From: Octopus vulgaris
Taxonomy: Eukaryota
NCBI GenBank assembly: GCA_951406725.2
Contig: OX597814.1
Span: 136,772,001-136,836,000 of the forward strand
Length of the DNA: 64,000 nucleotides
Reading direction: 5' to 3'
The notes under the pieces were generated by a model. It made no database searches and was not told the origin of the DNA. It worked only from the letters and a program-made list of their open reading frames with translations. Below, one piece after another: positions 29,661 through 32,747 of the stretch (within the stretch, counting starts at the first letter, position 1; each line of letters begins with the position of its first letter). The position numbers were made by a program, and so were the translations under genes.

Positions 29661-30414
29661 CTGTGAAGTACAAATGTCATTGACGGAGGACTGAGTTCTA
29701 AATCCAGTTTTGAATTTTAGTGATATTCATTCCGCATTACATTCGCTATGCATCTCTACGCGCACGCGTAAGAATGGCATGAAAGTCATATCATCCTAAT
29801 TTCTCATTTGTTATAATTTCAGTCTTCGTATAAAAGTCGGTGCTAAGACTAAACGAGTTGGCATAAATATTTTACAGTATTCAGTTGATTACATCAATTG
29901 TTTTTTCATTCAAAATCCCGTTTTGGTTGATTGCGTTTGCTGCTTGTTTCCTCCATGACTAATGAAATGAAGATCAATAAGATACAGAGATATATTAAAG
30001 CAATTATGATTTTAAATGATCTTGTGTTTAGACCAAACAAATATTATTGATTTGATTTTTTTAATATATAGACGCAGGCGCAGCTGTGTGGTACGAAGTT
30101 TGCTTCCAGGTCACATGGTTCCGGGTTCAGTTTATCTTTTACTTATTTCAGTCATTAGACACAAACCATGCTGGGGCAACGCCTTAAAGACATTTTAATC
30201 GAATGAATCGATCCCATGACTTATTTTCTCTTTGCCGAACCACTAAGTTACGGATACGTAAACACACCAACACCTGTTGTCAAACGGTGGTGGGGGACAA
30301 CATAGACACAAAGACACACCCCTCACACACACACATATGTATATATAATAAAAGAAAGAAAATGCACGCACTTTACATAGCTTTAATATATTTCTAATAT
30401 ATTTTATATTATGC

Positions 30415-30448
30415 TTGTCGTCCGGTTTCGCTTTCGCTAGTCATGACA
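30415..30448 (-). ncRNA. Mirror copy of the A3-U8 hammerhead
   Basis: The minus strand reads TGTC-ATGACTA-GC(GAAA)GC-GAAA-CCGG-AC-GACAA; U16.1 is changed to A. Confidence 0.65.
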
Positions 30449-30475
30449 TTGAAATTATCGTACTTTCGTATTTTC

Positions 30476-30512
30476 TTTGTCATGATTAGCGAAAGCGAAA
30501 CCGTTCGACAAA
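30476..30512 (+). ncRNA. Minimal hammerhead ribozyme, A3-U8 variant
   Basis: TTTGTC-ATGATTA-GC(GAAA)GC-GAAA-CCGT-TC-GACAAA: 6-bp helix I, 2-bp helix II, and helix III one mismatch from ACCGGT. Confidence 0.75.
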
Positions 30513-30675
30513 CACAATATAAAATATATTTTAAAATATATTAAAACTATGTAAATTGTGTGCATTTTCCTTCTTTTATTATATATATATATGTTGCATT
30601 ACAACTCACCACGTGTGGATAATCGAAATTCTTCCCTTTGTGTTTTATATATATATATATATAACACAAAGTAAG

Positions 30676-30707
<32 letters not shown>

Positions 30708-30743
30708 CTTACTTTGTGTTATATATATATATATATATATATA

Positions 30744-31452
30744 TAACACAAAGTAAGTTAGGGGTTATGGGTGCAACCCACTAAGGGATAGTATTTATCC
30801 AATATATTGTTGGTAAACTACCCAAATTCTTAAACATAAATGTTTAATTGCAATGCATAACTTATTTATTGTATTAAACGGGTGAAGGCAAAGAAATATT
30901 TTATTGTTAATTTATAATAAAAATAAGAAAATGGAGAAACAATTTAGTTTGTTCATCAACTTTCGGATATTAGAATGTTGAATTATTTATTCATTTAACA
31001 AAATGAGAACCTTAATAGCATACATATATACTTTATAATTCAATACATATAAGATAAGAATACAAATTATAAAAATCATAATATAAATTATTGAAATCAT
31101 TAAAATCACTTCTTACAGCTGTTTCAGTCTATGGTTAAAAGTATTTTTTTTTATTTTTATTGCCTATAGTTGTCTATTATATTGAGATTATAGACATTTA
31201 AAAATAGGGTACTTATATATATAACCATAGGCCTCGTCAGAGATTATAAAGAATTCCCAAAATATTAATACATGAAACAGGATACACTTATAATTTAATA
31301 TATATAAAAATATGAACAAATATTCATATAGATTTATACGTATACATATATACCTATACACATGCATAAGCAGGGTGTATATACTTTTACATGTGTAAAA
31401 ATATATAAATAAACACAATAAAAAATAGATCCAAGTAAATAGAACATTCGTC
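30744..31452 (-). mobile_element. AT-rich PLE-like tail carrying a hammerhead
   Basis: Bounded by (TA)n on both sides and contains the ribozyme motif at 31111-31243. Confidence 0.6.
31111..31243 (-). ncRNA. Hammerhead ribozyme with canonical core and extended helix II
   Basis: The minus strand reads TCT-CTGACGA-GGCCTATGGTTA(84 nt)TAACCATAGACT-GAAA-CAGCTG-TA-AGA. Confidence 0.8.
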
Positions 31453-31482: not shown

Positions 31483-32747
31483 ACCCGGTAATTCCCGGGG
31501 GTAAAGATATTCTATTGAAACGCCTTATTACTCTGATATCAAAAAGCAATTTCGTTATAACTGCCACAAAAGTATATTTTCCATCGGAAAAAAGTACAAA
31601 AAACTCTCAGCTGGAGGAGGGAAGAATTGTTGGAGGTTGACGAGAGAGGTTTTCGGAAGTTGGCGGGAAACATTGTCGGAGGTTGGCAAGAGAGGTCATC
31701 AGAGGTTGTCGAGAGAGGTTATCGGAGGTTGTCGAGAAAGGTTTTCGGAGGTCGGCGAGAGAGGTTGCCAGAGGTTGGCGAGAGAGATTGTTAGAAGTTG
31801 TCAAGAGAGGTTTTCCGAAGTTACATGGGAAAAACGCGGTTGAAGTGTTAAGTTAAATTTGGCAATCGAGGATCGAATCCATGCTGTGCCTGCATGAAGC
31901 CACTACAAATACGTTGTGGAATAAAAAAAATTATCTACTGTTATAGAAAAAGTGTAACTGTAAAAATGAAGAATTATCGGAGTAATGGGCATTCAAAAAA
32001 AGTATGTATGTATAGAAATGTGTGAATGAAGTCTTTAAGGTTTAGGATTAAAATCAAAGAAGTGCGATAATGTTTAGCAGTTAAAAACTGAGTAGTGAAA
32101 TGCAGAATTAGGTCGGCTGATCGTGAGAATCAAATATTGATCGCTTCGCTAGAAACTGCAGGTGGTATGGGTTATTTCCCTTGAGTTCTTTAAATATGAT
32201 ATTAGTAATATTTAGTAGATAGAAGGACCGATTGGAGGGGCCTTGTTATCGATATTTTTCAACAATCTAAGTATGTCACGAGGTTTCCAGACATGAGTTC
32301 TACGTCTCAAATAAAGTATAAAAGTGATATTATCTTCAAAAATTAGAAATTGGACACACAAAGAATCAATATTCAAAGTAATCGAGCATAAACAATAAAA
32401 CCTGTAAAATATTTCTAAATTCGATGGCTCAATTAGTTTCGCGAGAATATTGATCGCTCCGCTAAAAACTAACTACTGTAAATGCAGGTGTTATGGGTTA
32501 TTTCCCTTGAGTGTTTAAAAATAATTATACAGGTGCTATGAGTTATTTCCCTTGGGTGTTTAAAAAATTAGTTAACTGAGGTAGATATAAAGATTCCTTC
32601 CAGGGGCCGAATTATCGAGTTTTTCAATAAGTATGTTACGAGGTCTCCACTCACATGTCAAATTTCATCAAAATCAATAAAACGATGTAGGCGGAGTTAG
32701 CTAACAACGCCACAAACAAACACACACCGATTTTCCACATGTGTAGT
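31483..32747 (+). mobile_element. Non-autonomous Helitron/Helentron-like element
   Basis: 5' CCCGGTAATTCCCGGG hairpin, internal tandem repeats and duplications, and a 3' AAATTTCATCAAAATC...GGAGTTAG...ACAAACAAACACAC signature typical of such elements. Confidence 0.6.
31633..31822. repeat. 23-bp minisatellite, about 8 units (GAGGTTGTCGAGAGAGGTTATCG)
   Basis: Direct reading. Confidence 0.9.

What the first reader, a model, noticed from the sequence alone, without database searches (positions are those of the whole stretch)
30341..30586. Back-to-back hammerheads with an A3-U8 core at the centre of a palindrome
Both arms read AUGA(U/C)UA in place of CUGANGA, a double change that preserves the 3-8 pair, while the free position 7 differs between arms. 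The two-arm consensus is TTTGTC-ATGAYTA-GC(GAAA)GC-GAAA-CCGG-TC-GACAAA, a 37-nt motif with a perfect helix I, a GAAA tetraloop and palindromic ACCGGT. Each arm has one private lesion. Natural A3-U8 cores are uncommon to my knowledge; I cannot confirm novelty without a search.
Basis: partly seen in the sequence, partly recalled or inferred. Interest (0 to 1): 0.82.

Follow-up and report, generated by a model that had tools for sequence, protein, structure and literature searches.

The report
Retrotransposon hammerhead with flipped A3-U8 core
The palindrome is an ordinary, damaged, inverted end-fragment of a Penelope-like retrotransposon, but its whole family (at least 801 copies) carries a hammerhead-ribozyme motif with an unusual A3-U8 core pair, while its sister family has U3-A8, so the flipped pair likely still supports self-cleavage (untested).

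Summary
Observation largely confirmed. Both arms (A3 at 30444 on -, 30482 on +) are 3' pseudo-LTR fragments of a Neptune/Nematis-type Penelope-like element (PLE; RT, CX4CX2C linker, GIY-YIG). A3-U8 is the family state: 801 A3-U8 versus 1178 U3-A8 among 2125 genome hits on one scaffold; no exact C3-G8 copy with this subfamily's helices. The A3-U8 clade is sister to a U3-A8 clade with a U3·G8 subfamily; outgroup PLEs carry C3-G8. Helix I shows compensatory changes among A3-U8 subfamilies, while N7 and loop 2 vary. Full-length-type copies have the motif in the same direction before the ORF, which would allow the known ACCGGU dimer. The back-to-back layout is a routine 5'-inverted insertion (10 such pairs in 100 listed hits). 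The arms lie on opposite strands, each has a helix III lesion, and they fold into one hairpin, so this locus is probably dead. The 6-bp helix I is a junction artefact; the family has 4 bp. Natural U3-A8 is published; I found no natural A3-U8 in readable papers (three key papers unavailable), and this scan noted A3:U8 earlier in a phage. Cleavage is untested. New variant of a known kind.

The parts
30336..30477 (-). Inverted, 5'-truncated PLE 3' end (pseudo-LTR fragment): starts 33 nt upstream of A3 and ends in (TA)n
   Evidence: BLASTN to L038 and L012, 83-88% identity
30416..30448 (-). Left hammerhead motif: helix I 30448-30445/30419-30416, core AUGACUA 30444-30438, helix II 30437-30430, GAAA 30429-30426, palindrome broken by U16.1>A (30421), C17 30420
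30478..30645 (+). Direct, 5'-truncated PLE 3' end: starts exactly at the 5' strand of helix I and includes the family tail (about 135 nt) up to (TA)n
   Evidence: family tail
30478..30510 (+). Right hammerhead motif: helix I 30478-30481/30507-30510, core AUGAUUA 30482-30488, helix II 30489-30496, GAAA 30497-30500, G16.2>U lesion (30504), predicted cleavage after C17 (30506)
30477..30478 (.). Inversion junction between the two 5'-truncated copies
   Evidence: read from the sequence against family upstream sequence

Best explanation
The window holds two 5'-truncated 3' ends of a Penelope-like retrotransposon joined back to back, and the family's hammerhead motif has a fixed A3-U8 core pair that likely still folds and self-cleaves as a dimer in intact elements (inferred, untested), while this damaged copy is predicted to be inactive. 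Shown: the motif lies about 300 nt after the stop of an RT + GIY-YIG ORF and, in full-length-type copies, also about 170 nt before the ORF start on the same strand; 3-8 pairing is kept as C-G, U-G, U-A or A-U across related PLEs. Inferred from known PLE hammerheads: two sense copies pair through ACCGGU to build helix III, A3 pairs with U8 in place of C3-G8 so that the residue-8 ribose and G12 are positioned, and the RNA is cut after GUC, processing the element out of longer or tandem transcripts. Inferred: the palindrome arose by a template switch or second priming during integration into a (TA)n tract, and later point changes hit both arms.
For: 801 A3-U8 and 1178 U3-A8 of 2125 scaffold hits, reversed-pattern controls 0. 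0 exact C3-G8 and 6 single-mismatch hits with this subfamily's helices. Copies chosen without the motif: A3-U8 in 21 of 21 motifs scored in 30 protein-selected loci (its pattern skips copies with a deletion in the motif) and in 29 of 29 motif-bearing loci of 30 flank-selected loci. Pfam RVT_1 (28.9 bits, just under the 29.6 cut-off) and GIY-YIG (28.8, cut-off 22.6). Tree of 49 rows: A3-U8 clade and U3-A8/U3·G8 clade each supported 1.0 and sisters at 1.0. Outgroups L176, L179 and L262 have C3-G8; L176 has the same ACCGGU and a 2-bp helix II at both ends of its ORF. Pair 3-8 is paired in 14 of 14 hand-picked rows (AU 7, UA 4, CG 2, UG 1), and all 5 helix I pairs show two-sided changes. Same-strand upstream motif in 9 of 30 loci holding the ORF start. 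Co-folding two natural L271 motifs gives the double-hammerhead pairing as the minimum-energy structure, -15.3 kcal/mol. Back-to-back pairs: 10 opposite-strand (- then +) pairs within 1.5 kb among 100 listed hits, none in the other order. The window region folds as one hairpin, -137.4 kcal/mol.
Against: No cleavage data. In a comprehensive double-mutant scan of one type III hammerhead, only the G3-C8 swap rescued activity and all other core double mutants were low (PMC9901934 passages). PLE minimal hammerheads cleave only weakly in vitro (PMC4209133). Helix II is only 2 bp and helix I 4-6 bp. The covariation rows are related and hand-picked, so they represent few independent events; the U-A/A-U flip is one event. 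Only 1 of 30 flank-selected copies (L302) starts within 1 nt of the predicted cut, and none of 30 ORF-start loci starts at it. In four of five U3-A8/U3·G8 rows the first helix I pair is U·U unless one U is bulged.
Confidence: 0.7

Rival explanations
1. The A3-U8 motif keeps the hammerhead fold but cleaves little or not at all; it is kept for a non-catalytic role (RNA dimerisation through ACCGGU, RT or template recognition) or cleaves only with protein help.
For: A3-U8 was not rescued in one type III scaffold. Minimal PLE hammerheads are weak in vitro, and their authors leave other functions open. There is no excess of copies starting at the cut site.
Against: All catalytic-core positions (U4, G5, A6, A9, G12-A15.1) are invariant across 14 rows, and the 3-8 pair, which is a feature of the active fold, is kept in 14 of 14 rows.
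Confidence: 0.22
2. A3-U8 arose by two chance changes in an ancestral master copy whose ribozyme had become dispensable, and was carried along by amplification.
For: It is a single phylogenetic event. PLE clades lacking canonical hammerheads proliferate well (Naiads).
Against: Within the A3-U8 clade the flanks, N7 (U/A) and loop 2 (GAAA/GAUA/GAUU/ACAA) change and helix I is rebuilt by paired changes (GTC/GAC, ATC/GAT, TGTATC/GATACA, AGTC/GACT), while the core stays fixed.
Confidence: 0.06
3. The back-to-back palindrome is itself a functional unit (paired ribozymes, or a hairpin/miRNA precursor).
For: Strong hairpin (z -25.7); a weak Rfam miRNA hit far below the gathering score (34.7 against 100 bits).
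Against: The motifs are on opposite strands and each is damaged in helix III. The hairpin sequesters the sense motif. Such inversions are common, with variable spacing of 84-1476 nt, and are described for PLEs.
Confidence: 0.02

Closest known systems
Minimal type I hammerheads (min-HHR) of PLE pseudo-LTRs (Cervera and de la Peña 2014, PMC4209133; main text parts 1-2 of 4 and supplement parts 1-2 of 3 read)
   Same: Located in the pLTR of an RT + GIY-YIG PLE; no stable helix III, palindromic 15.1-16.1; G10.1-C11.1; short helix I; mostly solitary truncated copies, with opposite-strand pairs close together; U3-A8 variant known.
   Different: A3-U8 core (0 of the 56 representatives in their Fig. 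S3: 53 C3-G8, 2 U3-A8, 1 U3·G8). Helix II of 2 bp instead of their larger helix II. [quoted passage not shown]
Natural U3-A8 hammerhead core variants (Perreault et al. 2011, PMC3088659; passages read)
   Same: Watson-Crick covariation at the 3-8 tertiary pair; helix II often only 2 bp.
   Different: Here purine-3/pyrimidine-8, fixed in an animal retrotransposon clade of hundreds of copies, with a U3-A8 sister clade.
Neptune/Nematis clades of EN+ PLEs (PMC8557442; passages read)
   Same: C-terminal GIY-YIG, CX4CX2C linker, (TA)n insertion context, partial tandem pLTR, 5'-inverted copies.
   Different: Clade assignment between Neptune and Nematis was not tested against reference elements.
Small stem-III-deficient hammerheads that cleave as dimers (Lünse, Weinberg, Breaker 2017; title seen in reference lists only, content recalled)
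   Same: PLE-associated, dimer cleavage through a palindrome.
   Different: I could not check whether their collection holds A3-U8 cores.

Membership tests
PLE minimal type I hammerhead | Core CUGANGA with a 3-8 base pair | tested here: inconclusive
   The literal sequence C3/G8 is not met (AUGANUA); the 3-8 Watson-Crick pair and U4, G5, A6, A9 are met. Filed as a variant.
PLE minimal type I hammerhead | GAAA (G12-A15.1), U16.1 and H17 cleavage triplet | tested here: met
   Family reads GAAACCGGUC; the window's left arm has U16.1>A
PLE minimal type I hammerhead | Helix I and helix II with G10.1-C11.1 | tested here: met
   Helix I 4-6 bp with two-sided changes; G-C closing pair in 14 of 14 rows
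PLE minimal type I hammerhead | Palindromic helix III region allowing a dimer | tested here: met
   ACCGGU; duplex -8.3 kcal/mol and double-hammerhead minimum-energy structure for natural L271 copies; broken in both window arms
PLE minimal type I hammerhead | Located in the pLTR of a PLE, same strand at both ends | tested here: met
   3' of the ORF; same-strand copy before the ORF start in 9 of 30 loci
Hammerhead ribozyme | Site-specific self-cleavage | not testable with these tools
   No raw RNA reads were available
EN+ PLE (Neptune/Nematis type) | RT followed by C-terminal GIY-YIG | tested here: met
   Pfam, (RVT_1 just under cut-off in L100, above it in L117)
EN+ PLE (Neptune/Nematis type) | CX2-5CxxC linker between RT and EN | tested here: met
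   CX4CX2C in the L100 ORF; motif definition from PMC8557442
Neptune versus Nematis | RT phylogeny with reference elements | not tested
   No named reference PLEs were at hand
Non-LTR retrozyme | Head-to-tail tandem array of 150-400-nt units, each with a hammerhead | tested here: not met
   The window has two inverted fragments; only 1 same-strand pair within 5 kb among 100 listed hits, 3.47 kb apart around an ORF

The most novel reading that the evidence does not exclude
An animal retrotransposon lineage runs on a working hammerhead with a purine-3/pyrimidine-8 (A3-U8) core, reached by flipping the pair against its U3-A8 sister lineage. One genome thus holds a natural C-G, U·G, U-A, A-U series, and CUGANGA-based searches miss whole PLE ribozyme families.
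Probability: 0.5. Interest if true: 0.58.

Novelty: new variant of a known kind. Interest (0 to 1): 0.42.

Why it matters
The role and activity of PLE minimal hammerheads is an open question (PMC7761336 calls it a mystery). A tertiary core pair kept through a double transversion between sister retrotransposon clades is evolutionary evidence that these tiny motifs must reach the catalytically active fold. The four natural core states on nearly the same scaffold give a ready test panel. It also means that descriptor searches fixed on CUGANGA or UUGANAA undercount genomic hammerheads (801 or more here). The locus itself is unimportant.

Tried and rejected
Rfam found no hammerhead at E<=5, only sub-threshold miRNA models. 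Search for a cleavage footprint in genomic 5' ends: 1 of 30 (L302, one nt past the predicted cut, at an inversion junction) and 0 of 30; no signal. Expression: no RNA holder listed; all runs were contigs, so RNA ends cannot be seen. Run X20 gave one contig only. An apparent G3-G8 copy (L280) is a truncation junction. The repeat at 30720-30990 matches only the flanks of one duplicated locus (L323/L324), so it is not part of the element. Canonical-core families of this genome (1308 hits against 122 control hits) could not be tied to this clade: only 2 of 30 loci had a weak 34-35% ORF piece. IQ-TREE timed out; FastTree was used. The cores of the nearest outgroups (P0001-P0008) are unknown, so the order U-A/A-U is not resolved. 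Literature searches for a natural A3-U8: 'hammerhead'+'A3-U8' 0 papers, +'A3U8' 0, +'C3A'+'G8U' 1 irrelevant, +'octopus'+'Penelope' nothing on this; the PMC8557442 supplement had no match to four motif strings. Lünse 2017, Przybilski and Hammann 2007 and Arkhipova 2017 were not held, and they or their supplements may already show A3-U8. That any Watson-Crick pair at 3-8 can cleave in some scaffolds is recalled; one search confirms only that covarying pairs were shown active in vitro.

Full report
Observation. Window 30333-30594 is an imperfect palindrome. Each arm holds TGTC-ATGAYTA-GCGAAAGC-GAAA-(CCGG-TC, damaged)-GACA, with A3 at 30444 (-) and 30482 (+). The left arm has U16.1>A (30421) and the right arm G16.2>U (30504). 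Rfam gives no hammerhead hit.

Family. With positions 3, 7 and 8 free, the motif has 139 exact matches in the 2.8-Gb genome and 0 for the reversed control; 89 of the 100 listed are A3-U8 and the other 11 differ at one of the two positions. A C3-G8 version with the same helices has 0 exact matches and 6 with one mismatch. A DNA search with the right arm gave 1514 candidates, 40 scored; apart from the self hit, the copies were 77-93% identical. Upstream of the motif lie ORF pieces with RT, a CX4CX2C linker and GIY-YIG (Pfam). The named relatives are bivalve proteins at 45-46% identity. This is an EN+ PLE of Neptune/Nematis type (features from PMC8557442, passages). The host is likely an octopus; that label is recalled from the neighbouring SINE and the genome size and comes from no call. 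Copies picked without using the motif confirm the core: 21 of 21 motifs scored in 30 protein-selected loci (copies with deletions inside the motif are skipped by its pattern), and 29 of 29 motif-bearing loci among 30 picked by the 3' flank. In 9 of 30 loci holding the ORF start, a same-strand motif lies within 260 nt upstream of the search match, which is about 170 nt before the ATG where the tail is intact. Full-length elements therefore carry it at both ends.

Covariation. A looser scaffold pattern gave 2125 hits: 801 A3-U8, 1178 U3-A8 and 146 others. The others include a U3·G8 subfamily (L118-L120); I did not class the rest. The U3-A8 elements are about 61% identical in protein to the A3-U8 ones. 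A FastTree tree of 49 rows, rooted on L262, puts the A3-U8 and the U3-A8/U3·G8 clades as sisters, each with support 1.0. Outgroup PLEs from metagenome and genome contigs carry C3-G8: L176 (both ends of the ORF, same ACCGGU, 2-bp helix II), L179 and L262. Ten of the 23 outgroup loci scanned gave a paired-core hit and 13 gave none. C3-G8 is thus likely ancestral; the order of U-A and A-U is unresolved. Within the A3-U8 lineage, helix I reads GTC/GAC, ATC/GAT, TGTATC/GATACA or AGTC/GACT, loop 2 reads GAAA, GAUA, GAUU or ACAA, and N7 is U or A. On 14 hand-picked rows pair 3-8 is paired in 14 of 14, and 8 of 11 pairs show two-sided changes (0 of 500 shuffles; related rows, so descriptive only). Contigs of two further coded organisms (runs X16, X17) show no listed difference (5% threshold) at the core positions of L172, while loop 2 and distal helix I vary; X20 gave one contig.

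The palindrome. Among 100 listed hits there are 10 back-to-back opposite-strand pairs, 84-1476 nt apart, and none in the other order. PMC8557442 describes an inverted 5'-truncated copy adjacent to the 5' end as common in PLEs, and PMC4209133 reports opposite-strand min-HHR pairs. A transcript through the window locus has only one motif in sense and folds into one hairpin of -137.4 kcal/mol. With both helix III regions damaged, the locus is predicted inactive.

Mechanism. Shown: position, architecture and pair conservation. Computed: two natural L271 motifs co-fold into the double-hammerhead pairing. Inferred from known PLE hammerheads: dimer cleavage after GUC to process the element RNA. Against: PLE min-HHRs cleave weakly; in one type III scaffold only G3-C8 rescued among core double mutants (PMC9901934 passages); genomic 5' ends show no pile-up at the cut (1 of 30 and 0 of 30). 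I put working cleavage at about 0.65-0.7.

Novelty. Natural U3-A8 is published (PMC3088659 passages; PMC4209133). None of 56 PLE hammerhead representatives has A3-U8, and four term searches found no report. Three key papers could not be read. This scan earlier noted A3:U8 in one phage hammerhead (e1-3482507; unchecked). Verdict: new variant of a known kind; the family, not the locus, is the finding. Interest 0.42.

Noticed in passing
L165, L323-L342 (G000:C2:181372189 and others): A further, older A3-U8 family (helix I TAGTC/GACTA, loop ACAA) of about 270 nt with fairly sharp ends and no PLE ORF hit within 1.5 kb in 20 of 20 loci; 393 candidates. Possibly a non-autonomous SINE-like derivative.
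   Followed up: partly
L106-L125: The sister PLE clade with U3-A8 (1178 hits) has short branches and looks younger; it includes a U3·G8 subfamily, and several subfamilies have an extra unpaired U between helix I and position 3.
   Followed up: partly
G000:C1:20002278-20004542, 44912338, 92886705-92887859 (L140-L146): Tandem arrays of about 359-nt units, each with a canonical hammerhead and ACCGGU, some switching strand: non-LTR-retrozyme-like.
   Followed up: no
L302 around 1500 (+): A sense copy starts one nucleotide after the predicted cleavage site, at an inversion junction; the only such case in 30.
   Followed up: partly
window 30478; L018, L265, L274, L276: Several copies are 5'-truncated within about 15 nt upstream of the core, hinting at RT stalling at the motif; selection bias not excluded.
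   Followed up: no
window 30646-30990: Three alternately inverted copies of a 15-nt unit between (TA)n runs, leading into another dispersed repeat (30720-30990) that is also found beside L323/L324.
   Followed up: partly
window 30070-30330: SINE-like repeat directly left of the palindrome (label recalled, not tested).
   Followed up: no
window 31604-31833: 23-nt G-rich minisatellite, about 10 units.
   Followed up: no
L256-L262: PLE ORFs on mostly short contigs filed in bacterial MAGs; likely animal host DNA in those bins.
   Followed up: no
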